64,000 nucleotides of DNA from a virus. Lineage: Duplodnaviria > Heunggongvirae > Uroviricota > Caudoviricetes. Shown piece by piece: positions 3,162 to 29,222 of the stretch. The notes under the pieces were generated by a model that was not told the DNA's origin, made no database searches, and saw nothing but the letters and a program-made list of their open reading frames with translations. The stretch lies in the IMG/VR virus record IMGVR_UViG_3300025887_000009; one strand, given 5' to 3'. The translations under genes were made by a program, and so were the position numbers. Position 1 is the stretch's first letter, and every line of letters starts with the position of its first letter.

Positions 3162-4262
3162 ATGTTGGATGCACTAAAAACTCTATTTGAAAACAATGTG
3201 GTTTCTGAAGAGATCAGAACTGATATTGAAGAAGCTTGGAACGCGAAAATTAAAGAAAATCGCTTACAAGCAACAGCAGAACTTCGCGAAGAATTTGCAA
3301 AAAAGTATGAACACGACAAGAGCACAATGGTTGAGGCCATTGAATCAATGCTTGAGGAACGCCTAACTGAAGAGATGGCAGAACTTAAGGATGATCGTAA
3401 TCAACTTGCAGAAGCAAAAGCAAAGTATGCAGTAGCAATGCGTGAGAACGCAGCGCTTGTTAACAAGTTTATTACTAAGCAACTATCTGAAGAAATCAAG
3501 GACCTCCACGAGGACCAAAAATTGATGGCTCAAAATTTTGCTAAACTTGAAGAATTCATTATCGAGTCACTGGCTAAAGAAATCAATGAGTTTATGGAGG
3601 ACAAACAGGACCTAGCAGAAACTAAGGTTCGCTTAATCCGCGAGGGTAAAGCACACTTCAACAAAGTCAAAAAGGCATTTGTTGAAAGAAGCGCAACGCT
3701 TGTTTCCGAAACTGTTTCAAAATCACTTAACCGTGAAATGACACAGCTTAAGGAAGACATCGAGCTTGCACGAAAGAACGACTTCGGTCGTAAAATATTT
3801 GAAGCGTTTGCTAACGAATATACTTCTAGTTACTTAAACGAGAAGTCAGAAACTGCACAACTACTTAAGGTTATTAACACCAAGAATAAGCAGATTGCAG
3901 AAGCAAAAACATTCGCTTCAAAAGCAAAATTACTCGCTGAAAGCGCAGCGAAAGAAAAGACACTATTAGTTGAAAGTCAAAGCCGCAAGGACACTATCAA
4001 TGAACTAGTATCACCTCTTTCAAAGTCACAGCGCGAAATTATGACAGACTTACTGGAATCAGTTCAAACAGTGAAGCTTCGTGCTTCGTTTGACAGATAC
4101 TTGCCATCCGTTCTAAACGAAGGTAAGAGCACTCCGGCCAAGCAAAAGGCACAACTAAATGAAGGCACATCTATCACAGGCAATCGCGAAAACACAAATA
4201 AAACCAGTAGTACAAGCAATGAGAACGTAGTTGATTTACGTAGACTTGCTGGATTGAAATAA
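3162..4262 (+). CDS. 22: prohead scaffolding protein (gp22-like, coiled-coil)
   Basis: Strong RBS AAAGGAGAG. Charged, heptad-rich helical protein between the protease and MCP genes. C-terminus ...DLRRLAGLK. Confidence 0.6.
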   Translation: MLDALKTLFENNVVSEEIRTDIEEAWNAKIKENRLQATAELREEFAKKYEHDKSTMVEAIESMLEERLTEEMAELKDDRNQLAEAKAKYAVAMRENAALVNKFITKQLSEEIKDLHEDQKLMAQNFAKLEEFIIESLAKEINEFMEDKQDLAETKVRLIREGKAHFNKVKKAFVERSATLVSETVSKSLNREMTQLKEDIELARKNDFGRKIFEAFANEYTSSYLNEKSETAQLLKVINTKNKQIAEAKTFASKAKLLAESAAKEKTLLVESQSRKDTINELVSPLSKSQREIMTDLLESVQTVKLRASFDRYLPSVLNEGKSTPAKQKAQLNEGTSITGNRENTNKTSSTSNENVVDLRRLAGLK

Positions 4263-4272
4263 GGAGATCATA

Positions 4273-5451
4273 ATGTCAGAACTACTAGAAAGCCGCTGGC
4301 AGGAAACTAAGGGTGCTCTACTTGAAGGTCTACACGGAACTAAAAAATCCGTTATGGCAACAACACTTGAGAACACTCGTAATTATCTTGCAGAAACAGC
4401 AACAGCAGGCGCTACAAGCGCAGGCAACATCGCAACACTTAACCGTGTTATTCTTCCAGTCATCCGTCGTGTAATGCCGACTGTGATTGCAAACGAACTT
4501 GTTGGTGTTCAGCCAATGACAGGTCCTGTGGGTCAGATCCACACGCTACGTGTACGTTATGCGGATTCGTTTAACAGCACAGGCGGTACTGATACTACTG
4601 CTGGCGAAGAGGCACTAAGCCCATTCAAGATTGCAGAAGGTTACTCCGGTAACGCTGCTGATGATAAGGCTGCACCAACTGCGTCTCTAGAAGGCCTAGC
4701 TGGTAACCGTATGAACATCCAGATCCTAAAGCAGACTGTTGAAGCTAAAACTCGTAAGCTATCAGCACGTTGGACTTTTGAATCTGCACAAGATGCTCAG
4801 TCACAGCACGGTATCGACGTAGAAGCAGAAGTAATGGCTGCTCTTGCACAGGAAATCACAGCAGAGATTGACCGTGAAGTACTATCTTCACTTCGTTCGC
4901 TTGCAGGTGCTGCTTCTGAAACATACGACCAAGCTGCGGTATCTGGTACTGCTACATTCGTTGGTGACGAACACGCTGCTCTAGCTGTTCAAATCAACCG
5001 TGTATCAAACATCATCGCTCAGCGTACACGTCGTGGCGCAGGCAACTACGCAGTTGTTAGCCCATTTGCACTTACAATTCTACAGTCAGCAACTACTTCG
5101 GCATTTGCTCGTACTACAGAAGGTTCGTTCGAAGCACCAACAAATACAAAGTTTGCTGGTACACTTAACAACGCAATGCGCGTATATGTTGACACATATG
5201 CATCAGACGCTACAGGTGTTCTTATTGGTTATAAAGGATCAACAGAAAGCGACGCGCCAGCGTTCTACTGCCCATATATCCCACTAATGAGCTCCGGTAC
5301 AGTGCTTGATCCGTCAACATTCGAACCAGTTGTGTCATTTATGACACGTTATGGTTATGTTGAGTTGAACAACACAGCATCATCGCTTGGTAACGCTGCT
5401 GACTATCTTGGTCAGGTTGCTATTACTAACGGTAACGTATCATTCAGCTAA
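4273..5451 (+). CDS. 23: major capsid protein (T4 gp23 family)
   Basis: RBS AAGGAGA. 'VMPTVIANELVGVQPMTGPVGQIHTLRVRY' aligns to T4 gp23 'AIPNLIAFDICGVQPMNSPTGQVFALRAVY'. Followed by a strong terminator. Confidence 0.9.
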   Translation: MSELLESRWQETKGALLEGLHGTKKSVMATTLENTRNYLAETATAGATSAGNIATLNRVILPVIRRVMPTVIANELVGVQPMTGPVGQIHTLRVRYADSFNSTGGTDTTAGEEALSPFKIAEGYSGNAADDKAAPTASLEGLAGNRMNIQILKQTVEAKTRKLSARWTFESAQDAQSQHGIDVEAEVMAALAQEITAEIDREVLSSLRSLAGAASETYDQAAVSGTATFVGDEHAALAVQINRVSNIIAQRTRRGAGNYAVVSPFALTILQSATTSAFARTTEGSFEAPTNTKFAGTLNNAMRVYVDTYASDATGVLIGYKGSTESDAPAFYCPYIPLMSSGTVLDPSTFEPVVSFMTRYGYVELNNTASSLGNAADYLGQVAITNGNVSFS

Positions 5452-5473
5452 TAAGTTGAGAATACAAATACAG

Positions 5474-5500
5474 AAAAGGCTCTTCGGAGCCTTTTCTTTT
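5474..5500 (+). terminator. rho-independent terminator after major capsid gene
   Basis: AAAAGGCTC-TTCG-GAGCCTTTT hairpin (UUCG loop) plus a T-tract. Confidence 0.7.
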
Positions 5501-5562
5501 GACTTGACTTTCGCCTAACAGTCTGCTATTCTATAATAGCAAAAATATTTAGGAACAATATT

Positions 5563-5841
5563 ATGATTACGAAAATTTCAGACTGGCATCCGATTATGAC
5601 AGATATTAATCAAAAAAAACAGCACCTTCCTTTTAGACAACGAATTGAAGTAAATGCTTTTAATCGTAATATTGAAAAGATGCTTTTTAACATTAGTAAA
5701 TTAGAAGTAGAACTTCGTCAAAAAAAGAGCAAACAAGTGCAATTAAAAATTGATCAAGCGTATGAAGAAGTTAATGCTATCCTTCCTGTAATGGTTAATA
5801 AAATCTCCAGATATAGTACTCTAGCTATTCTTTCAAAGTAA
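5563..5841 (+). CDS. hypothetical protein (92 aa)
   Basis: ORF after the MCP terminator and a promoter-like region. Contains an A9 homopolymer at 5604-5612. Confidence 0.35.
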   Translation: MITKISDWHPIMTDINQKKQHLPFRQRIEVNAFNRNIEKMLFNISKLEVELRQKKSKQVQLKIDQAYEEVNAILPVMVNKISRYSTLAILSK

Positions 5842-5858
5842 ACTATCTTTCTCCTTGC

Positions 5859-5866
5859 ATAAATAC
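5859..5866 (+). promoter_or_regulatory. late-promoter-like ATAAATAC 1 nt before ATG 5868
   Basis: cATAAATACtATG. Confidence 0.35.
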
Positions 5867-5867
5867 T

Positions 5868-6314
5868 ATGTCTATTAAAAGAACCAGCCAATGTGCTGGA
5901 CTTACAGCGGTTACCCGCCCTGTAGACCTAGAACGTCAAAGGAGAAACAGAATGGGACGTCCAGTTAATAAAAGATATTTCGGTGATCCAGTTGGTGGTA
6001 CTCAGCTTAAAGTAGAAGCTGATACCGGTAACGGTGCAAGTGAAGTAGCATATATCCTTGCTCAAAAAGGAACAAACGAATTTAAAGTTACCGATGGTAC
6101 GACAGCATTAGATTGCCGTCTTGTTGATAAAGCTTTTGCAGCTATTGCAGAAGGTGAAATGGTAATTGCCGGTTCAGTTGCAGGCGGTGTCGGTCGTGCA
6201 ACAATTGCAAAACTATTCAATAGAACAGCAGTTGATTTTAACAGTGTACGTTATACTTGGGAAATCCAAGATGACTCAACTGAAACAGCACTAATCCTGA
6301 CACCAATTGAGTAA
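5868..6314 (+). CDS. hypothetical virion-associated protein
   Basis: ORF with the ATAAATACTATG motif at its start. Alternative RBS-supported start at 5952 (AAGGAGAAACAGAATG). Sits in the structural module. Confidence 0.45.
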   Translation: MSIKRTSQCAGLTAVTRPVDLERQRRNRMGRPVNKRYFGDPVGGTQLKVEADTGNGASEVAYILAQKGTNEFKVTDGTTALDCRLVDKAFAAIAEGEMVIAGSVAGGVGRATIAKLFNRTAVDFNSVRYTWEIQDDSTETALILTPIE

Positions 6315-6323
6315 GGAATAAAA

Positions 6324-7301
6324 ATGACAAAGGTCCTCAGTGTACCCAATGGTAGTTACTACGTCTACGTTCAAGATGGCGGCGTAATTCGTTTAGATAC
6401 AGGCTCGGAATTAGGTAGAGTTGAAATTAGCGGTGATCTCATCGTTGAAGGAAACACTACTACAGTTTCGTCTGAGGACCTGTCTGTCCGTGACAATGTT
6501 ATTATAATTAATAACGGAGAAACTGGATCAGGAGTAACTCTTGACACAGCTGGCATACAAGTCGATAGAGGATCATTGCACGATGCATTGTTTGTTTGGG
6601 ACGAAAATGTAACATGGACAGATCCAATTTCAGAAGGTGCTCTAACAGGGGCGTGGCATTCTAAAACAGCTAACGGAAGCCTTGTCGGTATTCGAACTAA
6701 CAGCATTACAACCGGTGGCGGCGACCTTTATTTAATTAACTCTGGTACCGGTGTTATATCTGTAATAGGTACTGCAAATTACGAAGACCAAGTAATTGAT
6801 GATGATCATATTCCTAACAAGAAATATATTGTAGACTACGTTAGTACCGCGTTTACTATTAATCTTCCTATAAGAATTGAAGACGGAACAGTTGCAAGTA
6901 AAACTTATGTAGAAGCGCAAGACTTTGAAACAACTAGTAATCCGAGTAGAATAGCAGTCGGAATCGACGAAACTGTAGTAGCAACATTTAGTGCAGAGAG
7001 CGTCGACCTGTATGGATTAAGAATAGACGGAACACATCTCCAAGTAATTGATTCAAATGAAGATTTAATTTTATCAGCAGCTGGCACAGGTCTAGTTAGA
7101 GTAGATGATATGCTTCAAATTAACTCAGTACCGGGAGTAGATGATGCAACAACCGTTCCTGCTGCACCAATTGACGGCGTTACGGTATATACAAACAGTG
7201 AAGATGTAGGCGGCACCGGTATGTTCTTTGTTAATCAAGATTCTTCACGTGGAGAATTAATTTCAAAAAACAAAGCACTTGTGTTTAGCATGGTATTTTA
7301 A
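6324..7301 (+). CDS. putative structural protein (325 aa)
   Basis: Sits in the late structural block and is Gly/Thr/Val-rich. RBS AAGGAATAAAAATG. Confidence 0.5.
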   Translation: MTKVLSVPNGSYYVYVQDGGVIRLDTGSELGRVEISGDLIVEGNTTTVSSEDLSVRDNVIIINNGETGSGVTLDTAGIQVDRGSLHDALFVWDENVTWTDPISEGALTGAWHSKTANGSLVGIRTNSITTGGGDLYLINSGTGVISVIGTANYEDQVIDDDHIPNKKYIVDYVSTAFTINLPIRIEDGTVASKTYVEAQDFETTSNPSRIAVGIDETVVATFSAESVDLYGLRIDGTHLQVIDSNEDLILSAAGTGLVRVDDMLQINSVPGVDDATTVPAAPIDGVTVYTNSEDVGGTGMFFVNQDSSRGELISKNKALVFSMVF

Positions 7302-7310
7302 GGAAAAATA

Positions 7311-7655
7311 ATGGCAATTGATTATGTAGCAATAGCAAACACAGACACCGACCTTGTAGTAGTTCCTGCAGGAAAGCAGTATGCAATTACAACAATTATG
7401 GTGTGCAACACATGGGCATTAGTGAATAACCCAGAAGACGAACTCGATGGATTAACTAACTTTGATATGCACTTTGTTAAATCAGGTGGCACAAAATCCG
7501 CAGTTAATCAAGTAATTAATCAATTGGAAATTCCTGCAGGCGAAACGTTTACTTTCGATTCAGAAAAAATTATATTAAGCGAAGGCGATAAGATTGTAGT
7601 AGTTGGAGATTCGCCAACTAACCTGTCAGCAATGGTTAGTTGGTTGGAGGTATAA
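7311..7655 (+). CDS. hypothetical structural protein (114 aa)
   Basis: ORF tightly packed (9 nt gap) in the late block. Confidence 0.45.
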   Translation: MAIDYVAIANTDTDLVVVPAGKQYAITTIMVCNTWALVNNPEDELDGLTNFDMHFVKSGGTKSAVNQVINQLEIPAGETFTFDSEKIILSEGDKIVVVGDSPTNLSAMVSWLEV

Positions 7656-8155
7656 TGAGACTTATTAAAGCAAACTCGACAAATTTGCGCTCAATAAGAG
7701 GCAAAGGTATACGGTATGAAACATCGCAAGAAGTAATTGTAGATTCAACTAAATCTATAAAAATTCCAGTCGGTCCAACTTCGTCTCGTCCTCCAACCCC
7801 CGAAAACGGCATGATGCGTTACAACACAACACGCAGTGAATTTGAGTTTTATGTGCAAAATGAGTGGCAAGCTATTGGTTCAAAAAATCCAACAGATATT
7901 GTGCAACAGAACTTAGGTGTTGGCAACGATGCAGAAGTGCATTTCGGTCCATTAGATTCGGGCGATACAGATTTTCCTGTACCTAATTCGGCAGAGAATA
8001 TTTTAGTTTATGTTGAAAACGTTCCGCAAATATCAACAACTAACTACACTCTTGTTCAAAATCCTGTCGGCAAGGATCCAGGATTCTATGTTGCGTTTGG
8101 CACACCGCCACCAACCGGAAAGCCGATAATAGTATTGCATAATTTTGACAAGTAA
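7640..8155 (+). CDS. fibre-repeat-containing structural protein
   Basis: Carries 'PVGPTSSRPPTPENGMMRYNTTRSEFEFYVQNEWQAIG', the same motif found in both downstream fibre genes. Confidence 0.5.
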   Translation: MVGGIMRLIKANSTNLRSIRGKGIRYETSQEVIVDSTKSIKIPVGPTSSRPPTPENGMMRYNTTRSEFEFYVQNEWQAIGSKNPTDIVQQNLGVGNDAEVHFGPLDSGDTDFPVPNSAENILVYVENVPQISTTNYTLVQNPVGKDPGFYVAFGTPPPTGKPIIVLHNFDK

Positions 8156-8161
8156 ATTGCG

Positions 8162-8169
8162 ATAAATAT
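8162..8169 (+). promoter_or_regulatory. late-promoter-like ATAAATAT 17 nt before fibre gene ATG
   Basis: gATAAATAtctcgtaaggggtagcatATG. Confidence 0.3.
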
Positions 8170-8186
8170 CTCGTAAGGGGTAGCAT

Positions 8187-9650: not shown

Positions 9651-9752
9651 ACAGCTAAATAGTAGTAATGGGGAGGCAACACCCAGGACAAACTGTGGGC
9701 AGCCCGCAAGGTAAGGTGGCTGGAGGGACAGGATCCCCAAAAGAGGATTAAC

Positions 9753-11231: not shown

Positions 11232-11234
11232 CAA

Positions 11235-16905: not shown

Positions 16906-19900
16906 ATGGCATTAGTATCACCAGGTGTAGAAGTTAGCGTAATCGACGAAAGTTTTTACACACCGGCAGAACCAGGAACTGTTCCACTTATTTTTGTTGC
17001 AACAGCATCAAATAAGGCAAACCCAAGCGGTACCGGAACAGCGCCAGGTACACTGGCAGCAAACGCAGGACGTCCATACTTGCTTACATCACAGCGTGAT
17101 CTAGCAGAAACTTTTGGAGACCCATCGTTTAAAACCGACAGCAATAACAATCCAATTCACGCAGGTGAATTAAACGAATACGGATTACAAGCAGCTTATT
17201 CATTGCTTGGTGTTTCTAATAGAGCATATGTTGTTCGTGCAGATGTTGATTTATCTGAACTTGAAGCATCTGCAACAGCGCCAGCAGGATCACCTGCAGA
17301 TGGCACATACTGGTTTGACACACAAAATACTAAGTTTGGTATTTTCGAATGGAACGGTAATCCGCAAACAACAACAGGCGGTCAAAGCTTTACTGTTAAA
17401 GAAGTTACTGTAATTACAGATGCAACTAAGGTCGATAGCTTTGGTGCACCAAAAACATCGGTTGGTGCAATTGGTGATTACGTGCTGCTTGCAACAACTA
17501 CACTTAACAAATTGTATTTCAAGAATACAGCAGGTACATGGGTAGAAGTTGGCGCGAGCGATTGGGCAGCAAGCTGGCCAACAGTACGCGGAACAGTAAG
17601 TAATCCGACGCTTTTAACAGGCGAGACAATTATTATTAACGGCACAACTGTTACACTTGCAGGAACGTTGCTTTCGAATCTAGCAAATGATATCAACGAT
17701 GCAGGAATTGCAGGAGTTACTGCGGCAGCAGTTGATGGTAGCATTGAGATTTATTCAACTGGTGTAGATGTTATTGTATCAGAAGGTTCTAATGAATTAA
17801 TGGCAGATGTTGGTTTAACAGCAGGTACGTTCTACGCGCCATCAGTTACAATCAGTCGTCACACGCAAGTACCTGAGTATAAACTTAACGATACTAATCC
17901 GCGCCCAACAGGTTCAATTTGGTCAAAGACTACAGAACCAAATGCTGGAGCACGTTGGAGAGTTAAAGTTTACAATGCAGACACACAATTGTTTGAAGAT
18001 GTCGAAGCACCACTTTACTCAAGTGGCAGTGCTGCAATTTATGCACTTGACGCAGCAGGCGGCGGCTTAAATCTTCCAGTCGGAACACTTTATGCAAAGT
18101 ATAATGACTCGGAAGAAAATCCGGTGTTTACAAACTATAAACTATATCGTCGTAGAGCAGCTGGTCCAACTAGCATCCGCTCAGGGGTTATATCCACTGG
18201 CATTTCAGCAGGTGCATTTAGCTTCGATATCCAAGAAGGTATTTTAACAAGTGGCGAACTAGCGGCTGCTATTACAGTTAGCGGAACAGCAACAGGTGCT
18301 TCGTCGGATGCAGATGTTATTGCTGGAGCAATTAACTCTGCAGGCTTTGTTAATATTACTGCAACAGTTGACGCACAGAACAGAGTTACAATCAGTCACA
18401 AACTAGGCGGCGACTTCCGTTTGGTGGATAGCGGTACTGTTTTAACAGAGATGGGCTATACAGCTTACGTAGACGCTAACAGCGGTACAACAAACCTGTA
18501 TGCAGCACCAGCTGGCGATTCAACAAACACACTAGTAGCAACAAACTGGCAAGTACTTTCGTATACAGCTTCAGAATCTGCACCAACTGCATTAACAGTA
18601 GACGGACGTCTATGGTATTCATCAGTTGTTGACGATGTCGATGTTATGGTTCATAACGGAACAACATGGGTTGGTTACCAAGATTCAACTAGCCCATTTT
18701 ATTCTGTAACCGAAGACGAAAAAACAGACCCAGCAGGTCCTATTGTTTCTGCAACCGAGCCGACTCTACAAAGCGACGGTACTGCACTAAAGAATGGCGA
18801 TTTGTGGATTGACACAGCAGATATCGAAAACTATCCAACTATCTACAAGTACAATGATGTACTTGCTGATTGGGAACTAGTTGACAAGTCTGATCAAACA
18901 ACCGAAGACGGTATCTTGTTTGCAGATGCTCGTTATAACACCTCGGGTGCTAACAGCAATACAGCAGGCGAAATTGTTGATCTATTAGCAAGCAACTTTG
19001 TTGACTTTGATGCTCCAGATCCAGCACTATACCCAAAAGGTATGCTACTTTGGAACCTACGTCGTTCAGGCTTTAACGTAAAGCGTTTTGCACGTAACTA
19101 CGTTAACACAAGTTCTGATAACATACGCTTTAGTGACGAATCAATGAGTGGTTATTATGCTAATCGTTGGGTAACTGAATCAGCAAACGAAGCAGACGGT
19201 TCGGGTGCATTTGGACGTAAGGCACAACGTAAGGTTGTGGTACAAGCGCTCCAAGCAACAGTAAACAGCAACCAAGAGATCCGCGACGACGAATCAAGAA
19301 TCTTTAACCTAATGGCAACACCGGGTTATCCAGAATTGATCGGTGAGATGATCTCACTTAACTTTGATAGAGGCCTAACAGCATTTATCGTAGCAGACTC
19401 GCCAGCAAGACTCACACCAGATGCAACATCGCTTAACGAATGGGGAACAAACGTTGCTCAAGCAGTTGAAGACAACGATGATGGATTGGTATCAAGAGAC
19501 GAGTATATGGGTGTTTACTATCCATGGGGCTTTACAAGTGACAACTTTGGTAACAACGTAGTTGTACCCCCAAGCCACATGATGCTACGTACAATTGCAC
19601 TAAGCGATCAGGTTAGCTATCCATGGTTTGCACCAGCTGGTACACGACGCGGCGGAATTACTAATGCAACGTCAACAGGCTATGTAACAAGCGAAGGCGA
19701 ATTTAACGCAATTGCTCTTAACGAAGGACAAAGAGATACATTGTACTCAGTAGATGTTAACCCAATTACATTTATTACTGGTGCAGGACTTGTAGCATTT
19801 GGACAAAAGACAAGAGCAAGAAGCGCAAGTTCGTTGGACAGAATCAACGTTGTTCGTCTTGTAGTATATCTGCGCTCGCAGCTTAAGAGACTTTCAAAGC

Positions 19901-20154
19901 CATACTTATTCGAACCTAACGATAAGATCACAAGGGACGAAATTAAGCAGGCAGCAGAAAGCTTGTGCTTAGAACTTGTAGGTTTACGCGCACTATATGA
20001 CTATCTAGTTGTATGTGACGAGTCAAACAACACACCATCGAGAATTGATAGAAATGAGCTGTATCTGGACATTGCTATCGAGCCAGTCAAGGCAGTTGAA
20101 TTTATCTATATCCCACTAAGGTTGAAAAACACTGGTGAGATTTCAGGGCTTTGA
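16906..20154 (+). CDS. 18: tail sheath protein (1082 aa, extended)
   Basis: N-terminus 'MALVSPGVEVSVIDESFY...' follows the conserved sheath start (T4 gp18 'MTLLSPGIELKET'). RBS AAAGGGAGA. Confidence 0.8.
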   Translation: MALVSPGVEVSVIDESFYTPAEPGTVPLIFVATASNKANPSGTGTAPGTLAANAGRPYLLTSQRDLAETFGDPSFKTDSNNNPIHAGELNEYGLQAAYSLLGVSNRAYVVRADVDLSELEASATAPAGSPADGTYWFDTQNTKFGIFEWNGNPQTTTGGQSFTVKEVTVITDATKVDSFGAPKTSVGAIGDYVLLATTTLNKLYFKNTAGTWVEVGASDWAASWPTVRGTVSNPTLLTGETIIINGTTVTLAGTLLSNLANDINDAGIAGVTAAAVDGSIEIYSTGVDVIVSEGSNELMADVGLTAGTFYAPSVTISRHTQVPEYKLNDTNPRPTGSIWSKTTEPNAGARWRVKVYNADTQLFEDVEAPLYSSGSAAIYALDAAGGGLNLPVGTLYAKYNDSEENPVFTNYKLYRRRAAGPTSIRSGVISTGISAGAFSFDIQEGILTSGELAAAITVSGTATGASSDADVIAGAINSAGFVNITATVDAQNRVTISHKLGGDFRLVDSGTVLTEMGYTAYVDANSGTTNLYAAPAGDSTNTLVATNWQVLSYTASESAPTALTVDGRLWYSSVVDDVDVMVHNGTTWVGYQDSTSPFYSVTEDEKTDPAGPIVSATEPTLQSDGTALKNGDLWIDTADIENYPTIYKYNDVLADWELVDKSDQTTEDGILFADARYNTSGANSNTAGEIVDLLASNFVDFDAPDPALYPKGMLLWNLRRSGFNVKRFARNYVNTSSDNIRFSDESMSGYYANRWVTESANEADGSGAFGRKAQRKVVVQALQATVNSNQEIRDDESRIFNLMATPGYPELIGEMISLNFDRGLTAFIVADSPARLTPDATSLNEWGTNVAQAVEDNDDGLVSRDEYMGVYYPWGFTSDNFGNNVVVPPSHMMLRTIALSDQVSYPWFAPAGTRRGGITNATSTGYVTSEGEFNAIALNEGQRDTLYSVDVNPITFITGAGLVAFGQKTRARSASSLDRINVVRLVVYLRSQLKRLSKPYLFEPNDKITRDEIKQAAESLCLELVGLRALYDYLVVCDESNNTPSRIDRNELYLDIAIEPVKAVEFIYIPLRLKNTGEISGL

Positions 20155-20822: not shown

Positions 20823-20841
20823 TAATAGTTACAAGCAAAAT

Positions 20842-20870: not shown

Positions 20871-20884
20871 ACTACTTTTTCTGA

Positions 20885-20892: not shown

Positions 20893-20896
20893 CAAT

Positions 20897-22838: not shown

Positions 22839-22863
22839 CTAAATACACTTGGAGAAATAGCGT

Positions 22864-23016
22864 ATGTTTAAATGCAAAAATTGCGAGCGAGATTGTCATT
22901 GCGGCAGTCCGTTGTTTGAAGAAGCACGTAACTGGCGGGAAGAACGCCTAGGCGAACGAAAAGTTTGTAACGAATGCGACTGCAAAAACTGCAACAAAGA
23001 GGCATCCGAATTATGA
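22864..23016 (+). CDS. small Cys-rich zinc-ribbon protein (50 aa; below ORF-track cut-off)
   Basis: ATG at 22864 with GGAG 8 nt upstream. 'CKNCERDCHCG...CNECDCKNCN'. Stop overlaps the next ATG (ATGA). Confidence 0.4.
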   Translation: MFKCKNCERDCHCGSPLFEEARNWREERLGERKVCNECDCKNCNKEASEL

Positions 23017-23531: not shown

Positions 23532-23547
23532 CTATAAGGGGATTACA

Positions 23548-24120
23548 ATGAAGAAGTTTTTAGAATATATAGTCGAAAGTGAAAAGAAATATGAATTTAA
23601 GATTCGTATTGCTGGTCACGACATACCGACTGACAGAGTAAGCAAGTTAGAAACAGCATTGCAAAAGTACGAGTTAGTGTCATTTGCATCTGGCAGGAAA
23701 ACACCAATACAAGAAAATCCGTTACACTTTCCGCAAATTCAAAATTGCGAAGTAATGACATATGATGCTGTATTAAAATACCCTGCAACAGCAACAATCT
23801 TGCAAAAGTATCTAGCTGATACAATTGGATTAGCAGAGACACATGTTCTTGTAACATCTGCAACTGAGCCTTTTGAAGAGCTTGCAAATCCAGCAGCTAA
23901 AAGCGACACATACGAGCCGATCCTTTCTAAAACAGAAATGGAAGATGCTGACCCCGATGCACAAAGCAAAGTAGGCTCAAACAGAGTAATGGACTTGCTT
24001 AAAGAACTAGAGCAAGCAAGAGCAGAACGCACTACAGGTAATCCAACAGAAGGAACTCCAGTAGGCGACAGCACAGATATATCCCCAATAGTAAACACCG
24101 ATTCGGTAGTAGGAGGTTAA
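23548..24120 (+). CDS. hypothetical protein (190 aa)
   Basis: ORF with RBS AAGGGGATTACAATG. Confidence 0.45.
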   Translation: MKKFLEYIVESEKKYEFKIRIAGHDIPTDRVSKLETALQKYELVSFASGRKTPIQENPLHFPQIQNCEVMTYDAVLKYPATATILQKYLADTIGLAETHVLVTSATEPFEELANPAAKSDTYEPILSKTEMEDADPDAQSKVGSNRVMDLLKELEQARAERTTGNPTEGTPVGDSTDISPIVNTDSVVGG

Positions 24121-24121
24121 C

Positions 24122-24955
24122 ATGGATAACCAAAAAGACATTTTTAAAGCTTTAATTCAAGCAGTAAAATCAAACGACGTAGACACTAAGCCAGCAAAGC
24201 AACTAAACGAAGCGGCAGCAGCAAATATCAGTCTTACAGGCGACAGCGCGGCAGAAGTAGAACAACTAATGCGTATGTTCAAAAATGCAGGAATGCCAGA
24301 TGCAGCGCCGGCGCCGATGTCTATTCAATCAGGCGAAGAAGAATCATGTGGGTCAGGCAGTGAAGAAGATCCTGAATCAATATCGATAGCAATGGGCGAC
24401 ATGGAAGACGAGCACGAAAATGGCGAATATGACAGCCAGTCTAACGAAGAATATGAAAATGAGCCAAATGACGAGTACCAAGACAACGAGTATATGCAAC
24501 ATGATTTAGCTGGCGGTATTAACAAGCCGAAGAAAATGTATGCAAAAGCACAAGATGGTGACAACGCAATGGCAGTTGAAACTATTAAGCAGTCTCTTTT
24601 GAAAGCACTTAGTGAAAAGATGCAAGATGACAAAGTCGCCGAAGCAAGCAAACCGTCATGGGAAAAAGAAGGCAGCTGGTCAAAGAATATAAAGAAGAAG
24701 CAAGACGAATATCTTCCTAAGAGTTCAAAGAAGCCAGTTGCTAAAGAAAAGAATACAACTGAAGCTTCAAAAGAAACGAAGTTTTCAGGCTATTCAAAAG
24801 GCAATAATAAAAAAGGGCATCCAGACCAAGGCAAGCTTGTTGGAGAGAGCAAAGAAGTTAACGATATTGTTAAACTTGCCCTAACAGAAGTAAACGCACC
24901 TTCTGCAAACAAAACACAACATGCACTGGACCTTAAGAAACTAGCAGGTATCTAA
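24122..24955 (+). CDS. acidic hypothetical protein, C-terminal ...DLKKLAGI (scaffold-like tail motif)
   Basis: RBS GGAGG. Acidic middle. The C-terminus matches the scaffold C-terminus ...DLRRLAGLK. Confidence 0.5.
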   Translation: MDNQKDIFKALIQAVKSNDVDTKPAKQLNEAAAANISLTGDSAAEVEQLMRMFKNAGMPDAAPAPMSIQSGEEESCGSGSEEDPESISIAMGDMEDEHENGEYDSQSNEEYENEPNDEYQDNEYMQHDLAGGINKPKKMYAKAQDGDNAMAVETIKQSLLKALSEKMQDDKVAEASKPSWEKEGSWSKNIKKKQDEYLPKSSKKPVAKEKNTTEASKETKFSGYSKGNNKKGHPDQGKLVGESKEVNDIVKLALTEVNAPSANKTQHALDLKKLAGI

Positions 24956-26539
24956 ATGTCAAAGTCGTTAGACGGCGTACTGATTAAAAAAGCCAATCAG
25001 AAGGAATCATACACTGAAAAAGAAGTTGGAGAACTTATAAAGTGTATGGATCCTGATGATGGCTATTTGTATTTTTCTAGAAATTTCGCATATATTCAAC
25101 ACCCTGTAAAAGGTAAGTTGTTATTTGCTCCATATGAATATCAGCTAGGATTAATGGACAGTTATCACAGCTTTAGATTTAATATTAATATGATGCCTAG
25201 ACAAACGGGTAAAACTACTTGTGCTGCTATCTATCTTGCATGGTATGCAATGTTTAATCCAGACCAAACTATTCTAATTGCTGCTCACAAATACACAGGT
25301 GCGCAGGAAATTATGTCACGTATACGATTTGTATACGAAAGTTGCCCTGATCATATTAGAGCCGGGGTTACAAGCTATAACAAAGGTTCTATTGAATTTG
25401 AAAATGGATCACGTATTGTAAGCCAAACAACAACAGGCAACACAGGACGTGGTATGTCTATTTCGTTATTATATTGTGACGAATTTGCATTTGTGCAACC
25501 TAACATTGCTGAAGAATTTTGGACTTCAATTTCACCTACACTAGCAACAGGTGGACGTGCAATTCTTACAAGCACGCCTAACTCAGATGAAGATACATTT
25601 GCTACTATATGGAAAGGTGCAGAACAAAAGTTTGACGAGCACGGCAACGAGAGCGACGTAGGAGTCAACGGGTTTCACTCGTTTATATCAACATGGGACG
25701 AACATCCAGATAGAGACGAAGCGTGGAAAGCTACCGAAGTTGGAAGAATTGGTGAAGAGAAATTCCGTCGTGAATACGGCTGTGAATTCCTTGTATTTGA
25801 TGAGACTCTTATTCACGCAATTAAGCTTGCTGAAATGGAAGGCATATCTCCTATACTTAATATGGGACAAACACGCTGGTATAAGAAGCCAAAGAAACAA
25901 TATTCTTATGTTGTAGCACTCGACCCTAGTATGGGAACCGGTGGCAACAATGCAGCTATACAAATTATCGAAGTTCCTACTTACATACAAGTAGGAGAAT
26001 GGATGCACAACGACACAGGCATACCTGGGCAGATACGAGTACTAAAAGACATCTGCACGTACATTGCAGATAGATGTAAAAATAATGGAGAAAATGTATA
26101 CTGGTCTGTTGAAAATAACGGACTTGGAGAAGCAGCTCTAATTGTAATTGATGATTTTGGAGAAGAAACTATTCCCGGAATGTTCCTCTCAGAGCCTGCA
26201 CGAAAAGGGCACGTTCGTAAATTCCGTAAAGGTTTTAACACGACTCACGGGCATAAGATCTCGTCGTGTTCTAAGTTAAAAACGATGGTAGAAAATAATA
26301 AATTTACCATTAATTCAAAGCCACTTATTTCTGAATTAAAAAACTTTGTAGCAACTGGATCTTCGTATCAAGCTAAGTCGGGACAAACAGACGACTTGGT
26401 TTCTGCAATCTTGTTAACCTTACGAATGCTAACAGTAATGAAAGACTGGGATGCAAAGATTTATAACACCTTCACACAACTTGACGAGGATGAGAAATAC
26501 GACGTTGCTCCGATGCCAATGTTTATCAGTATAACTTAA
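24956..26539 (+). CDS. 17: terminase large subunit
   Basis: Walker A 'MPRQTGKTT'. Classic T4 gp17-like ATPase N-domain and nuclease C-domain layout. Confidence 0.9.
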   Translation: MSKSLDGVLIKKANQKESYTEKEVGELIKCMDPDDGYLYFSRNFAYIQHPVKGKLLFAPYEYQLGLMDSYHSFRFNINMMPRQTGKTTCAAIYLAWYAMFNPDQTILIAAHKYTGAQEIMSRIRFVYESCPDHIRAGVTSYNKGSIEFENGSRIVSQTTTGNTGRGMSISLLYCDEFAFVQPNIAEEFWTSISPTLATGGRAILTSTPNSDEDTFATIWKGAEQKFDEHGNESDVGVNGFHSFISTWDEHPDRDEAWKATEVGRIGEEKFRREYGCEFLVFDETLIHAIKLAEMEGISPILNMGQTRWYKKPKKQYSYVVALDPSMGTGGNNAAIQIIEVPTYIQVGEWMHNDTGIPGQIRVLKDICTYIADRCKNNGENVYWSVENNGLGEAALIVIDDFGEETIPGMFLSEPARKGHVRKFRKGFNTTHGHKISSCSKLKTMVENNKFTINSKPLISELKNFVATGSSYQAKSGQTDDLVSAILLTLRMLTVMKDWDAKIYNTFTQLDEDEKYDVAPMPMFISIT

Positions 26540-26546
26540 TAAATAC
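26539..26546 (+). promoter_or_regulatory. late-promoter-like ATAAATAC, 3 nt before ATG 26550
   Basis: taATAAATACaatATG. Same 13-mer as at 416 and 20897. Confidence 0.4.
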
Positions 26547-26549
26547 AAT

Positions 26550-29222
26550 ATGAAAGATTTAAGCACAATAGGTGAAGAACTATTTAACAAGATTCGCGGA
26601 CGATTCCCGTCAGTTACCATCGGTGACGAAAACGGCAAAGTAACCAACGTTCCAGAAGAGGCAAGATTTTTTGATTTTGCATATTCAAAAATGGATCCAA
26701 ACAACAAAGTATCTGTTAGCATAGATGAAGACAGTGGCTTGGTTGTGATGTACAACAGTGATTTAATTGCACTCGAAGGCAGCAACAGAAAAAGCGACTG
26801 GTACGGATTCTTACGTGAGTTACGTCGATTTGCTCGCAAGCGGTTACTTAGTTTTGACACTAGAGATATTGAGCGCAACAATTTAAAGAAAAGAGATTAC
26901 AAGTATCTCGCTAAACCTCCAAAGGACGAATCAATGAACGAATCAAAGATGTACGGCACTGCAAGAATAAGCTACCAGGATGTAGGAAACGCAAGATTAA
27001 TGGTGCGTCATACTAAGCCGGTAAACACAGAATTACCAACAGGTAGAACGATGCATATTGAAGGCATTTACATTGAGAGTTCAGAAGGTGAAAGATTTAA
27101 ATATCCATTTAAGCACATGTCAGGTGCTCGTGCAATGGCTCGTCACGTATCCGAAGGCGGTAATGCGTATGATGAGTTTGGCGGGCACATTACGGGACTA
27201 TCAGAAGAACTAGCAAAACTACGCAAGTTTAAATCGTACATGGGTCGTTCAAGTGTTATGGCAGAAGGTTTGTCGGGATACATGGACGTTGTTAACGAAC
27301 GAGTAAGCGAAGTAAAATCACGCATTGATAAACTACAGCGCGAAAGCTATTACAAAGAAGCTTTTGAAGGTTTTGAAAAGCCTATGTTTGAAGATGTTCC
27401 AGAAGACGTAAAGCAAGACTGGATTGCACAACTTACAATTAAACAGTTTAACGAAGAATTGCAAGATGTATTTCCTTACATCTACAAGCTTATCGGAGAA
27501 GCCGGACCACGCGAGCTTACAGCTGATGAGATGGTGTCCGAAGATGATCCGTGCTGGAAAGATCACAAGCAAGTTGGAATGAAAGAAAAAAGCGGCAAAA
27601 AAGTGCCAAATTGTGTTCCGGAAGAAGAAGAACTAGAACGCGGAATTGAAGAAATGATGGGACAATTTGCAGAACATCAAATATCCGAAAAGAAAGATTA
27701 CAACTTTACAGCAGATGACATTCAAAAACTACAACGCATCAAAGATTTGAAGCAAGCACAAGAATTTGCATTTAAATTAGTTTCTGCAGATTCAGCTAAG
27801 CCTATGCAAAAGCAAAAAGTTAACTGGTTTAAGCAAAATATTGCTTCAAAGAAATCAGTAATGGATCTTGTAAAAATGATGTACGACCTTCTACTAAGTG
27901 GAGAAGGTAAAGGTGTAATTGGATCAGGTAGCAGCATGAGCAAAAACAGCTATCGCAGAACATTTGATTCTGTTGAAGAAGCCGGCGGCGTTGGTAACCT
28001 TTATCTTAAATTTAGAACACAAATGACTCCGGGTTCGAGCGCAGAAGGTTCTGTTCCTTACCTTGTAGGTTTTGCAGGTTTTGAACAAGATCCTAAAGAT
28101 CTAAAAATGAAAACAGCAACCCGAAAGTTTCTTAACTTAAACACTCAAAAAGATATTCAGAACGCTGTTAAGAAATTGATGAACGACAAGGTGTTTGTAA
28201 ACGCTGGGAAGATTATATTATATAGAGAAGACAGTGTAGTCGGGCAACACCCGCAACTGCGTGACTTCTTTAAGTGGATGAAATCATACAGCGGCGAAGC
28301 AGTCGGAGTAGAACGTGCGCCGGATAGAGACAAGATTGAAAAAGATCCTAATGGACCTCTTAAAAAGAGAGCAAAGAAAGGCTCGTTTGCATCAGGAGAC
28401 AGAGAAGTAACTGCACCTGATAAGAAGATGACTAGATACCTTACTATTGATAATGCTCGACTTCTTGACATGTTTAAAAAGCAATATCCAGACTTTATGA
28501 GAAAGTATTACAAGCCTGCTCAGAGGACGTTTGTTATGCCTGATAAGGTCTACAGACAATTTGCAAACACAGTAACGAAGCCGGCAATAGTACAAAGCTA
28601 TGGTCCAACTAAGATAACAGTTGATCAAGAGAAGAGTTTTGCAGAAGAGCCACAAATGAAAGCAGCAAAGCCGGATCAGATACCATTAGGTGAATTTATC
28701 CTTAGCTATTTTGATAAAGAAACTGGGCGATTCCCTAAGGGCGAAACAGCAGTGCTTACGTCAATTGAGAAAGACTATGGTGAAAGCTTTATTGATCCTG
28801 CAAAGAAGTTTATTGAACAGATCCACGGTAAGTTCGCAGAGCATACTAAGCGTCCAGAAATAAATGATGTAGAGCAACTAGGCGACAGTGAAATTGGCGA
28901 GAGAGCCGGCGAAAAAAGTGGTGAATTTGACAGCTATATAGACGATGACGACGGCACAGAAGTAACTGTACATTGGGAAGCAGACGAAGATATGTACGGA
29001 AATTCCGACATCACATTTTATGCAGTTGATGCAGCAGGAAACGAAGTAGATTATTCTCCAAGAGATGAAGCTCGTTGGAAAGAAGAACTCGGCGATCAAA
29101 TGAGCAGCTACGACGACGAACGCGGCGATCATATGTATCAACAGCAAAAAGACAACGGCTTTGAATCATCTGGGTACCGTGAAGAAATGGCTGGTATTGC
29201 AAAGTTAGCAGGTTTAAAGTAA
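26550..29222 (+). CDS. large hypothetical protein (890 aa), C-terminal ...IAKLAGLK
   Basis: Long uninterrupted ORF with an AATAAATACAATATG start. No polymerase or portal motifs seen. The C-terminus shares the LAGLK tail with the scaffold protein. Confidence 0.55.
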   Translation: MKDLSTIGEELFNKIRGRFPSVTIGDENGKVTNVPEEARFFDFAYSKMDPNNKVSVSIDEDSGLVVMYNSDLIALEGSNRKSDWYGFLRELRRFARKRLLSFDTRDIERNNLKKRDYKYLAKPPKDESMNESKMYGTARISYQDVGNARLMVRHTKPVNTELPTGRTMHIEGIYIESSEGERFKYPFKHMSGARAMARHVSEGGNAYDEFGGHITGLSEELAKLRKFKSYMGRSSVMAEGLSGYMDVVNERVSEVKSRIDKLQRESYYKEAFEGFEKPMFEDVPEDVKQDWIAQLTIKQFNEELQDVFPYIYKLIGEAGPRELTADEMVSEDDPCWKDHKQVGMKEKSGKKVPNCVPEEEELERGIEEMMGQFAEHQISEKKDYNFTADDIQKLQRIKDLKQAQEFAFKLVSADSAKPMQKQKVNWFKQNIASKKSVMDLVKMMYDLLLSGEGKGVIGSGSSMSKNSYRRTFDSVEEAGGVGNLYLKFRTQMTPGSSAEGSVPYLVGFAGFEQDPKDLKMKTATRKFLNLNTQKDIQNAVKKLMNDKVFVNAGKIILYREDSVVGQHPQLRDFFKWMKSYSGEAVGVERAPDRDKIEKDPNGPLKKRAKKGSFASGDREVTAPDKKMTRYLTIDNARLLDMFKKQYPDFMRKYYKPAQRTFVMPDKVYRQFANTVTKPAIVQSYGPTKITVDQEKSFAEEPQMKAAKPDQIPLGEFILSYFDKETGRFPKGETAVLTSIEKDYGESFIDPAKKFIEQIHGKFAEHTKRPEINDVEQLGDSEIGERAGEKSGEFDSYIDDDDGTEVTVHWEADEDMYGNSDITFYAVDAAGNEVDYSPRDEARWKEELGDQMSSYDDERGDHMYQQQKDNGFESSGYREEMAGIAKLAGLK

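What the first reader, a model, noticed from the sequence alone, without database searches (positions are those of the whole stretch)
3162..29222. Shared C-terminal 'K-L-A-G-L/I-K' tail on scaffold and two other late proteins
The scaffold (3162..4262) ends ...VDLRRLAGLK. The acidic protein 24122..24955 ends ...LDLKKLAGI. The 890-aa protein 26550..29222 ends ...GIAKLAGLK. The acidic core protein 1493..2503 ends with a weaker ...SLIGSKK. A common C-terminal peptide on otherwise unrelated proteins suggests a shared docking or capsid-targeting signal. One possibility is binding the coat-protein shell or portal; another is a prohead-protease recognition site. That would make the 277-aa and 890-aa proteins packaged internal head proteins, analogous to T4 IPs/Alt but targeted from the C-terminus.
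Basis: seen in the sequence. Interest (0 to 1): 0.6.

Follow-up and report, generated by a model that had tools for sequence, protein, structure and literature searches.

The report
Shared head-targeting tail on phage proteins
Three unrelated late proteins of an uncultured marine giant phage, including the capsid scaffold, end in the same conserved ten-residue peptide (…D-L-K/R-K/R-L-A-G-L/I), which most likely acts as a portable address label docking proteins inside the assembling head.

Summary
The scaffold (3162-4262), a 277-aa acidic protein (24122-24955) and an 890-aa multidomain protein (26550-29222) all end in [DE]-[LI]-[KR]-x-L-A-G-[LI](K). About 0.01 such genes are expected in the window (P~2e-7). 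The fourth protein (1493-2503) has a different ending.

The tail is strongly conserved at the peptide level, with free synonymous variation. It ends 120/120 close scaffold homologues and 116/150 distant ones, including PA5oct, Atu_ph07 and Rak2-like phages. It ends 117/120 homologues of the 890-aa protein despite lengths of 498-1325 aa, and all 9 orthologues of the 277-aa protein.

AlphaFold models place it as a short capped helix after a disordered linker, as in scaffolds whose C-terminal helix binds coat protein. In Atu_ph07 and PA5oct the same motif sits at the N-terminus of proteins next to the terminase gene, so it is portable.

The Atu_ph07 homologue of the 890-aa family is an abundant, fragmented virion protein, while the scaffold is absent from virions.

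Best reading: a prohead-docking peptide shared by scaffold and cargo. The receptor (coat protein favoured) is unproven. It is a new variant of known targeting signals and appears undescribed.

The parts
3162..4262 (+). Scaffolding protein (366 aa), a positional gp22 analogue between the prohead protease and the major capsid protein
   Evidence: PHROG 10922, and 39% identity to PA5oct gp330. The AF2 model has long helices 16-213, 229-283 and 288-321, a disordered linker 323-351 and a terminal helix 354-362. It contains 26 (L/I/V)xE sites.
4224..4259 (+). Scaffold tail NVVDLRRLAGLK (residues 355-366)
   Evidence: It is invariant or near-invariant in 120/120 close homologues and 80/80 IMG/VR loci. 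It is present in 116/150 distant representatives and in PA5oct, Atu_ph07, Vibrio 2.275.O and Munch. Synonymous codons vary.
24122..24955 (+). 277-aa acidic low-complexity protein directly upstream of, and abutting, the large terminase gene. It belongs to a modular family of putative internal head proteins.
   Evidence: No Pfam, PHROG or NCBIfam hit. Homologues form a modular family with CTS-like N-termini. The positional equivalents PA5oct gp281 and Atu_ph07 gp111 were MS-detected.
24920..24952 (+). Tail HALDLKKLAGI of the 277-aa protein
   Evidence: All 9 true orthologues end in [LM]D[LI][KR]KLAG[IL]. An LTE site at residue 256 would leave a 21-aa tail peptide.
26550..29222 (+). 890-aa multidomain protein directly downstream of the large terminase. 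It has a conserved N-terminal domain (1-320), a Cys hairpin motif (333-357), a variable middle, a conserved module (709-767), a linker and the tail.
   Evidence: Alignments A1 and A2 and an AF2 model with pLDDT 75. The N-domain is homologous to PA5oct gp278, 121Q gp5 and Atu_ph07 gp108. The BFVD top hit is annotated as containing a 'large polyvalent protein-associated domain'. Atu_ph07 gp108 has 25 peptides in virions.
29181..29219 (+). Tail EEMAGIAKLAGLK of the 890-aa protein (contains a half-repeat, MAGI + LAGL)
   Evidence: 117/120 homologues of 498-1325 aa end in [IM]-[KRS]-x-L-[AS]-G-[LIV] plus 0-2 residues, as do 57 IMG/VR loci. Phosso gene 412 ends ...ARLRKLAGI. The model shows helix 875-886 after a linker of pLDDT <50.
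2516..3148 (+). T4 gp21-type prohead protease (Peptidase_S77), a candidate to release or clip tail-bearing proteins
   Evidence: PHROG 207, E 2e-57. PF03420 is recorded for the identical gene in L174.
4273..5451 (+). Major capsid protein (T4 gp23-like, 392 aa), the favoured but unproven receptor of the tail
   Evidence: PHROG 138, E 3e-100. The only solved relatives are T4 gp23 and gp24.
24956..26539 (+). Large terminase subunit, flanked by the two tail-bearing cargo genes
   Evidence: PHROG 36964, E 5e-118. The synteny matches PA5oct, 121Q, CBB, Atu_ph07 and Phosso.
1493..2503 (+). Acidic core protein (pI 4.05).
   Evidence: It is a homologue of PA5oct gp332. Family endings are KS[TIV][IV]G[SGK] or STRAK. 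The Atu_ph07 homologue gp213 is in virions, mainly in the lowest-MW band.

Best explanation
The 9-11-residue peptide phi-[DE]-[LI]-[KR]-x-L-A-G-[LI] (plus 0-1 residue) is a portable prohead-docking peptide. It forms a short amphipathic, basic helix ended by a Gly-hydrophobic cap and is tethered by a flexible linker.

On the scaffold, it is the element that anchors every scaffold subunit to its partner inside the assembling head. That partner is most likely the inner face or N-terminal propeptide region of the T4-type major capsid protein. The 890-aa multidomain protein and, in this lineage, the 277-aa internal-protein-like protein carry a copy of the same peptide. They are therefore co-assembled into the prohead by mimicking the scaffold.

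The gp21-type protease then degrades the scaffold, which has 26 candidate L/I/V-x-E sites, and cuts the cargo. This frees the small tail peptides, and the remaining cargo fragments stay in the head with the DNA.

What is shown: the motif, its conservation at the peptide level on three unrelated families, its structural context, its portability to N-termini in relatives, the virion presence and fragmentation of the 890-aa family in Atu_ph07, and the absence of the scaffold from virions. What is inferred: that the peptide binds something in the prohead, that the receptor is the coat protein, and that the tail is what loads the cargo.
For: (1) Chance is excluded.
(2) There is deep purifying selection on the peptide only. 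Scaffold homologues carry it in 120/120 cases and 116/150 distant representatives. Homologues of the 890-aa protein carry it in 117/120 cases. The 277-aa orthologues carry it in 9/9. Information content collapses upstream of position -8, and synonymous codons are free.
(3) In ~510,000 ORF residues from 160 related loci, 139 of 186 L[AS]G[LIVM] occurrences lie within 4 residues of a C-terminus. All but three of them are on the scaffold or the 890-aa family.
(4) AF2 places the tail as a short helix after a linker of pLDDT <50 in both modelled proteins. It is not packed on the protein's own body.
(5) The scaffold tail persists in PA5oct, Atu_ph07, Vibrio 2.275.O and Rak2-like Munch. The cargo tail is present in cultured phage Phosso.
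(6) The same motif is at the N-terminus of Atu_ph07 gp111 and PA5oct gp281, next to the terminase gene. This fits a position-independent address, as with the N-terminal T4 CTS (PMC5694885).
(7) In the Atu_ph07 proteome, gp108 has 25 peptides and 31% coverage and is most abundant in the lowest-MW band. Neighbouring RecA, SSB and TerL have 1-4 peptides, gp111 is detected, and scaffold gp214 is not detected.
(8) There is precedent. The 80alpha scaffold and the unrelated SaPI1 CpmB share a C-terminal RIIK motif that binds the same site on the coat protein (PMC6893505).
(9) Related coliphages phAPEC6 and 121Q contain an inner body whose proteins are unidentified, so internal proteins needing an address exist in this clade (PMC7247149).
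Against: There is no binding or structural evidence for any receptor, and no solved structure exists for this scaffold or cargo family. Homologues of the 890-aa protein that lack the tail are still reported in virions (Atu_ph07 gp108 ends ...INAVKRF; also PA5oct gp278 and 121Q gp5). The tail is therefore not necessary for incorporation in those lineages. Most relatives have a tail-less protein at the position of the 277-aa gene. Several virion proteomes of this clade also list SSB and RecA, so MS presence alone is weak. T4 gp22 itself lacks the tail.
Confidence: 0.55

Rival explanations
1. The tail binds another core component or the scaffold lattice itself rather than the coat protein. Candidates are the extremely acidic core protein 1493-2503 or the scaffold coiled coil. 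Tail-bearing proteins would then co-polymerise into the T4-type core before the shell forms. This is still prohead targeting, but core-directed, like the T4 CTS.
For: In T4, internal proteins associate with the core via the CTS before the shell assembles (PMC5694885). The tail is basic (RR/KK). The neighbouring core protein has pI 4.05, with 127 D/E in 336 aa, and its Atu_ph07 homologue gp213 is in virions.
Against: AF2 with a deep alignment does not fold the tail back onto the scaffold body. The acidic tracts of the core protein are low-complexity and poorly conserved, whereas the tail is precisely conserved, including L-A-G, which suggests a shaped pocket.
Confidence: 0.2
2. The tail is a portal-docking peptide. 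The scaffold would use it to nucleate assembly on the portal. The two proteins encoded beside the terminase would use it to sit at the portal vertex, for example as part of an axial inner body or ejection apparatus.
For: Both cargo genes flank the terminase gene. Scaffold-portal contacts are essential in P22 (PMC5529062 and PMC12005531, listed). The inner body in phAPEC6 and 121Q lies on the portal axis.
Against: Every scaffold copy (hundreds to thousands) keeps the tail with near-invariance, but only 12 portal subunits exist. In known systems the scaffold's C-terminal helix binds coat protein and a different region binds the portal.
Confidence: 0.1
3. The tail is a recognition or cleavage element for the gp21-type prohead protease (an exosite or substrate motif) rather than an address.
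For: All three proteins are likely protease substrates. In PA5oct the motif copies are followed within 4-8 residues by phi-x-E: VKE, VEE, VDE. Scaffold position -5 is D/E after V-[VI].
Against: T4-type proteases cut after Glu in L/I-x-E. The scaffold position is Asp in 92/120 and Glu in 22/120. The 890-aa family has no acidic residue at a fixed register, and the invariant L-A-G lies beyond any such site. A cleavage site need not be terminal.
Confidence: 0.07
4. The tail has nothing to do with the head. It could be a C-terminal tag read by a chaperone or an AAA+ unfoldase/protease (relatives encode ClpX/ClpA/ClpS/FtsH-like proteins). Alternatively it could be a generic helix-capping ending that recurs without a common partner.
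For: PA5oct encodes ClpX-, ClpA-, ClpS- and FtsH-like proteins. C-terminal hydrophobic tags such as ssrA ...LAA are read by ClpX (general knowledge).
Against: The carriers are restricted to head-module and terminase-flanking genes. The motif also works at N-termini. A generic cap would not be confined to two or three families among about 2,500 ORFs in 160 loci.
Confidence: 0.08

Closest known systems
80alpha scaffolding protein gp46 and SaPI1 CpmB (shared C-terminal RIIK motif)
   Same: Two unrelated proteins carry the same short, conserved, basic C-terminal motif. It binds one site on the coat protein, so the second protein enters the procapsid by mimicking the scaffold (PMC6893505).
   Different: The motif sequence differs (RIIK versus [KR]xLAG[LI]), as do the phage lineages (HK97-like siphovirus versus T4-superfamily jumbo myovirus). 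CpmB is encoded by a parasite and redirects capsid size. Here the mimics are conserved, syntenic phage genes, one of them large and multidomain.
T4 capsid targeting sequence (CTS) of internal proteins IPI-III and Alt
   Same: A ~10-residue portable peptide addresses otherwise unrelated proteins to the T4-type prohead core and is removed by the gp21 protease (PMC5694885). The head module here is T4-type (portal, S77 protease, gp23-like MCP). Relatives carry the LAG motif at N-termini, and the 277-aa family has CTS-like N-termini.
   Different: The T4 CTS is N-terminal and is not present on the scaffold gp22. Here the peptide is at the C-terminus in the window and is shared with the scaffold itself. 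T4 gp22 lacks it.
C-terminal coat-binding domains of scaffolds (P22 gp8 helix-turn-helix, phi29 gp7)
   Same: An elongated helical scaffold, a flexible linker and a small basic C-terminal helix that contacts coat protein. The AF2 architecture matches.
   Different: There is no sequence relation. The element here is a single capped helix of about 9 residues, not a helix-turn-helix. Binding to coat protein is not demonstrated.
Nested protease/scaffold genes sharing one C-terminus (lambda C/Nu3, herpesvirus UL26/UL26.5)
   Same: A common C-terminal segment delivers more than one protein to the procapsid interior via the coat protein (established knowledge).
   Different: In those systems the shared end arises from in-frame overlapping genes. 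Here three separate genes with unrelated bodies share only about 10 residues.
Polyvalent proteins injected by phages (Iyer et al. 2017, PMC5512222)
   Same: The 890-aa family has a conserved frame with a hypervariable multidomain middle (498-1325 aa) and occasional LysM or KOW inserts. Its top structural neighbour is annotated as containing an LPD domain.
   Different: No LPD or effector domain is detectable in the window protein by Pfam. Injection is not shown.

Membership tests
Scaffold C-terminal coat-binding peptide (P22 / phi29 / 80alpha type) | Sits at the extreme C-terminus of an elongated alpha-helical scaffold, after a flexible linker | tested here: met
   The AF2 scaffold model has helices to residue 321, a linker 323-351 with pLDDT <50, and a terminal helix 354-362.
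Scaffold C-terminal coat-binding peptide (P22 / phi29 / 80alpha type) | Most conserved segment of an otherwise fast-evolving scaffold; basic and amphipathic | tested here: met
   Information content is 3-4.3 bits at positions -8..+2 versus 1-2 bits upstream. R/K occupy -3 and -2. The tail is kept down to ~32% identity.
Scaffold C-terminal coat-binding peptide (P22 / phi29 / 80alpha type) | Physically binds the inner surface of the major capsid protein; deletion abolishes procapsid assembly | not testable with these tools
   Only single-chain prediction was available, and no solved structure of this clade exists.
T4 capsid targeting sequence (CTS) | N-terminal ~10-residue peptide | tested here: not met
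   It is C-terminal in all three window proteins. It is N-terminal only in the relatives Atu_ph07 gp111 and PA5oct gp281.
T4 capsid targeting sequence (CTS) | Followed by an L/I-x-E gp21 cleavage site and removed on maturation | tested here: inconclusive
   phi-x-E follows the motif in PA5oct gp281 and gp249. In the window, the candidate sites LTE256 (277-aa protein) and LNE334 (scaffold) lie upstream of the tails. No MS data on protein ends are available.
T4 capsid targeting sequence (CTS) | Carrier proteins are found inside virions | tested here: inconclusive
   Atu_ph07 gp108 (25 peptides) and gp111 (2 peptides) are in virions, but gp108 itself lacks the tail. No proteome exists for a phage whose 890-aa homologue has the tail.
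T4 capsid targeting sequence (CTS) | Sufficient to package a foreign protein | not testable with these tools
   This needs fusion experiments.
Nested protease/scaffold shared C-terminus (lambda C/Nu3, HSV UL26/UL26.5) | The shared end arises from in-frame overlapping genes | tested here: not met
   The three genes are separate, 20 kb apart and have unrelated bodies. The protease has a different C-terminus.
SaPI CpmB-type scaffold mimic | An unrelated protein shares the scaffold's C-terminal motif | tested here: met
SaPI CpmB-type scaffold mimic | Encoded by a parasitic element; redirects capsid size | tested here: not met
   The carriers are syntenic core-neighbourhood genes of the phage across PA5oct, 121Q, CBB, Atu_ph07 and the marine clade.
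T4 gp21-type protease cleavage site | Glu at P1 with L/I/V at P3 in a fixed register | tested here: not met
   Scaffold position -5 is Asp in 92/120. The 890-aa family has no fixed acidic position next to L-A-G.
Helix-turn-helix DNA-binding motif (…LAG[VI]S…) | The turn is followed by a recognition helix | tested here: not met
   The polypeptides stop 0-1 residue after G-[LI].
Polyvalent proteins (for the 890-aa protein) | Multiple recognisable effector or LPD domains in one polypeptide | tested here: inconclusive
   [not shown]

The most novel reading that the evidence does not exclude
The LAG peptide is the general, position-independent prohead 'address code' of the whole Rak2 / PA5oct / Atu_ph07 / marine jumbo-phage clade. 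It binds the same pocket on the T4-type coat protein (or core) that every scaffold subunit uses. A hypervariable, polyvalent-type cargo protein and modular internal proteins are loaded by scaffold mimicry and later form the inner body or ejected protein set. If so, about 10 residues would suffice to programme packaging of arbitrary proteins into giant-phage heads, and the tail could be used to enumerate the unknown internal proteomes of uncultured jumbo phages from sequence alone.
Probability: 0.4. Interest if true: 0.75.

Novelty: new variant of a known kind. Interest (0 to 1): 0.62.

Why it matters
How giant phages load dozens of non-structural proteins into their heads is largely unknown. 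The inner-body proteins of the Rak2/121Q group have not been identified, and the only defined address in T4-type heads is the N-terminal CTS.

A short, sequence-recognisable peptide shared by the scaffold and cargo would do four things:
- It would explain how scaffold and cargo are co-assembled.
- It would give a sequence rule for predicting packaged proteins in thousands of uncultured marine jumbo-phage genomes.
- It would point to the scaffold-receptor interface in a very abundant phage clade with no structural data.
- It would offer a minimal tag for packaging engineered proteins.

All of this is directly testable in the cultured phages PA5oct, Atu_ph07 and Phosso.

Tried and rejected
1. 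Chance, rejected.
2. Paralogy of the three proteins, rejected. There are only low-complexity BLASTP matches, and similarity is confined to the tail.
3. DNA-level conservation (RBS, terminator or promoter in the tail codons), rejected. Synonymous codons vary freely, and the MCP gene has its own AAGGAG after the scaffold stop. The hairpin at the 890-aa stop is window-specific and has no T-run.
4. The acidic core protein as a fourth carrier, rejected.
5. The 890-aa protein as portal, rejected. The portal is upstream (PF07230 at the window start and in L174).
6. The 277-aa protein as small terminase, no support. It has no family hit, it is a low-complexity modular family, and its positional equivalents were MS-detected in virions. 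This is not formally excluded.
7. Loose matches in the UvsY-like ORF 31745-32200 (…LRVAGMEDASV) and the tail sheath (…GEISGL), treated as coincidental.
8. T4 gp22 as a carrier: it is not one.
10. Literature searches for the motif strings and for shared scaffold/cargo tails in jumbo phages found no description.
11. The search for related loci with the 277-aa protein found nothing in IMG/VR, and tblastn found nothing in cultured phages.

Full report
CONTEXT. The window comes from an uncultured phage of the T4 superfamily. It is related, at 30-40% protein identity, to the jumbo myoviruses PA5oct (Arenbergviridae), Atu_ph07/Phosso and the Rak2/121Q group. It belongs to a very large environmental, mostly marine clade: 7,883 scaffold homologues, contigs up to ~300 kb, and Tara and JGI sources.

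Gene order is syntenic with PA5oct. It runs portal (C-terminus at 2-403), small ORFs, acidic core protein (1493-2503), S77/gp21-type protease (2516-3148), scaffold (3162-4262) and gp23-like MCP (4273-5451). Further on come the tail sheath (16906-20154), tube, head-closure gene, two small virion proteins, the 277-aa protein (24122-24955), large terminase (24956-26539), the 890-aa protein (26550-29222), then SSB, UvsX and UvsY.

OBSERVATION. The three termini are exactly as reported: …NVVDLRRLAGLK, …HALDLKKLAGI and …EEMAGIAKLAGLK. LAG[LIVM] occurs six times in all six-frame ORFs of the window, and three of those are these C-termini. With the window's composition, 0.010 genes are expected to end this way, giving P(>=3) = 1.7e-7. 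Apart from the tail, the proteins share only low-complexity similarity. The 'weaker' fourth case (1493-2503) belongs to a family with its own ending, KS[TIV][IV]G[SGK] or STRAK, and is not a carrier.

CONSERVATION. All 120 closest scaffold homologues end in N-V-[VI]-[DE]-[IL]-[RK]-R-L-A-G-[LI] plus 0-1 residue, as do all 80 scaffold loci from IMG/VR. Among the 150 best representatives of 50%-identity clusters (32-59% identical to the query), 116 end with the motif within four residues of the terminus. Most others are fragments or have 5-6 extra residues, and a small subclade has another ending.

In cultured phages the scaffold ends as follows: EELRRLAGIK in PA5oct, NDLKRLAGIKK in Atu_ph07, LDRLTKIAGIRK in Vibrio phage 2.275.O, and LKSLERNAGIHKK in the Rak2-like Munch. 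T4 gp22 does not have it. T4 gp68 (…KRRKALGLS) and gp21 (…AMKKAL) are only loosely similar.

The 890-aa family has a conserved N-terminal domain of ~320 aa, a Cys hairpin motif, a hypervariable middle and a conserved ~55-aa module. Lengths range from 498 to 1325 aa, yet 117/120 members end in E-x3-[IM]-[KRS]-x-L-[AS]-G-[LIV] plus 0-2 residues, as do 57 IMG/VR loci. The homologue in the cultured Sinorhizobium phage Phosso (976 aa) ends …ARLRKLAGI. All nine true orthologues of the 277-aa protein end in [LM]-D-[LI]-[KR]-K-L-A-G-[IL].

Information content falls to background upstream of position -8 in every family. All synonymous codons for L, A, G and R are used, so selection acts on the peptide and not on an overlapping nucleic-acid signal. 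Across ~510,000 ORF residues in 160 loci, 139 of 186 L[AS]G[LIVM] matches are C-terminal.

ANATOMY. The AF2 scaffold model (140-sequence alignment, pLDDT 82) is a set of very long helices, followed by a disordered linker (323-351) and a terminal helix (354-362) that stops at L-A before G-L-K. The 890-aa model (pLDDT 75) is a string of small domains, then a linker of pLDDT <50 (856-880) and a terminal helix 875-886. In neither model does the tail pack on the protein's own body.

Hydrophobic residues at positions -7, -4, -1 and +2, with K/R at -3 and -2 and an invariant Gly, fit an amphipathic basic helix with a Gly-hydrophobic C-cap (inference). This is the architecture of scaffolds whose C-terminal helix binds coat protein (P22, phi29, 80alpha; established knowledge and PMC6893505).

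PORTABILITY. In PA5oct, the protein upstream of the terminase (gp281) starts MFNINDILRLAGVQAVKE and has a second copy, LDEISKLAGISNVEE. The virion protein gp249 has KKLAGISNDSAVDE. In Atu_ph07, the 113-aa protein upstream of the terminase starts MDIERLKILAGLENSK. Internal copies with the same context occur in the marine modular proteins. The motif therefore works at either end, as expected of a linear docking or address peptide.

In most marine relatives, the gene at the position of the 277-aa protein belongs to a modular low-complexity family. Its N-termini (MDMKKLIESMDHIEE…, MNMKDMIQRMTDIE…) resemble the T4 CTS, and its C-terminal modules are interchangeable. The LAGI tail is one such module, used in the window's lineage.

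VIRION EVIDENCE. In the Atu_ph07 proteome (PMC6102473, Table S5), gp108, the homologue of the 890-aa family, has 25 unique peptides and 31% coverage. It is found in every gel slice and is most abundant in the lowest-MW slice. Its genomic neighbours have far fewer peptides: RecA-like 1, SSB 3 and TerL 4. gp111 is detected with 2 peptides and 24% coverage. The acidic core homologue gp213 is present, mainly in the lowest slice. The scaffold gp214 is absent.

Homologues are annotated as structural in 121Q, PBECO4, CBB (where the neighbouring SSB and RecA are not), BF and PA5oct. In phAPEC6 the signal is weak (2 peptides), and SSB and RecA are also listed. Caveat: Atu_ph07 gp108, PA5oct gp278 and 121Q gp5 lack the tail. 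The N-terminal domain can therefore be incorporated without it. phAPEC6 and 121Q possess an axial inner body of unknown composition.

MECHANISM. The best-supported reading is that the peptide docks its bearer to a site inside the assembling prohead, and that the cargo proteins copy the scaffold's own anchor. The receptor is not identified.

The coat protein is favoured for two reasons. Every scaffold copy keeps the tail, and in every well-studied system the scaffold's C-terminal helix contacts coat protein. A core-directed interaction (with the acidic core protein or the scaffold lattice) or a portal interaction remain possible.

The scaffold has 26 L/I/V-x-E candidate protease sites, the last at E334. 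The 277-aa protein has LTE256. The tails would therefore end up on peptides of 32 and 21 residues that could leave the head (inference).

A protease-site reading of the motif itself fails. There is no Glu in a fixed register, and the invariant L-A-G lies beyond any candidate site. An HTH reading fails because the proteins stop right after the turn. A degron or chaperone tag is unlikely given the restriction to head-module genes and the N-terminal copies.

COMPARISON AND NOVELTY. Functionally the closest precedents are the following:
- The RIIK motif shared by the 80alpha scaffold and SaPI1 CpmB, which bind the same coat-protein site (PMC6893505).
- The N-terminal T4 CTS (PMC5694885).
- The shared C-termini of nested protease/scaffold genes.

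The present case differs in several ways. The sequence is different, and it occurs in T4-type jumbo phages. It is shared between the scaffold and conserved phage cargo genes, one of them a hypervariable multidomain (polyvalent-like) protein. It can be used at either terminus. No paper in the searchable library describes it, and no solved structure covers these families. I rate it a new variant of a known kind, of moderate-to-high interest because it is immediately testable and gives a sequence rule for predicting packaged proteins in an abundant uncultured clade.

LIMITS. No complex prediction could be run. Only ±10 kb beyond the window was inspected (no further carriers found). Virion proteomes of this clade contain likely contaminants. 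No proteome exists for a phage in which the 890-aa homologue carries the tail.

Noticed in passing
L007-L086 (gene immediately upstream of the terminase match); window 24122-24955: The gene upstream of TerL is a fast-evolving modular family. Its N-termini (MDMKKLIESMDHIEE…, MNMKDMIQRMTDIE…) resemble the T4 capsid-targeting sequence. Its C-terminal modules are interchangeable (GSKPKKGxVPPQFKKK; CPxCGxxGKKKLMACSxCGC; CWDGYEKVPGKKRGEPGSCRKK). These are possibly a pool of internal head proteins.
   Followed up: partly
L179 1372-1713 (Atu_ph07 gp111); L003 29321-30817 (PA5oct gp281); L004 8221-8847 (PA5oct gp249): The same LAG motif occurs at the extreme N-terminus (MDIERLKILAGLE…, MFNINDILRLAGVQAVKE…) or internally, followed within 4-8 residues by phi-x-E, the T4-type protease consensus. 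All three proteins were MS-detected in virions.
   Followed up: partly
window 27546-27620: A small Cys motif, DPCWKDHKQVGMKEKSGKKVPNCVP, is predicted as a beta-hairpin. It is nearly invariant in the 890-aa family and hits several PHROGs of unknown function. Related CW…GxKKKGG…C endings occur on other small marine phage proteins.
   Followed up: no
window 29205-29230: A perfect 9-bp hairpin, TTAGCAGGT-N8-ACCTGCTAA, spans the stop codon of the 890-aa gene, and the L-A-G codons form its 5' arm. There is no T-run, and the terminator scan does not call it.
   Followed up: partly
window 44415-45036 (+) and 59588-62325 (-): There is an array of at least eight paralogous genes starting MRNGLIVDEDGTKTWYQNNLLHREDGPAVE… and ending …KTLMRLQYA. 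They give weak Pfam DUF6745 matches. The two clusters lie on opposite strands.
   Followed up: partly
window 2516-3148 and 1493-2503; L087-L166: Other head-module proteins have their own conserved C-terminal endings. The protease ends in an amphipathic L[IV]N[IL]I[SN]xL[QR]. The acidic core protein ends in KS[TIV][IV]G[SGK]. These may be further docking elements.
   Followed up: partly
L171 4024-5087 (T4 genes 68 and 21): T4 core proteins gp68 (…KRRKALGLS) and gp21 (…AMKKAL) end in basic-hydrophobic peptides loosely reminiscent of the LAG tail. T4 gp22 does not.
   Followed up: no
L174 3829-4560 (about 6 kb upstream of the window start in the same phage): A 243-aa ORF ends …VKILRKAGITGVRILPGD. 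This is a loose AGI motif nine residues from the end, and its significance is unknown.
   Followed up: no
[not shown]
   Followed up: partly
window 3162-4262: The scaffold carries 26 (L/I/V)-x-E motifs in 366 residues, consistent with T4 gp22-like complete degradation by the gp21-type protease. The MCP has candidates at residues 6, 18 and 41 in its N-terminal region.
   Followed up: no
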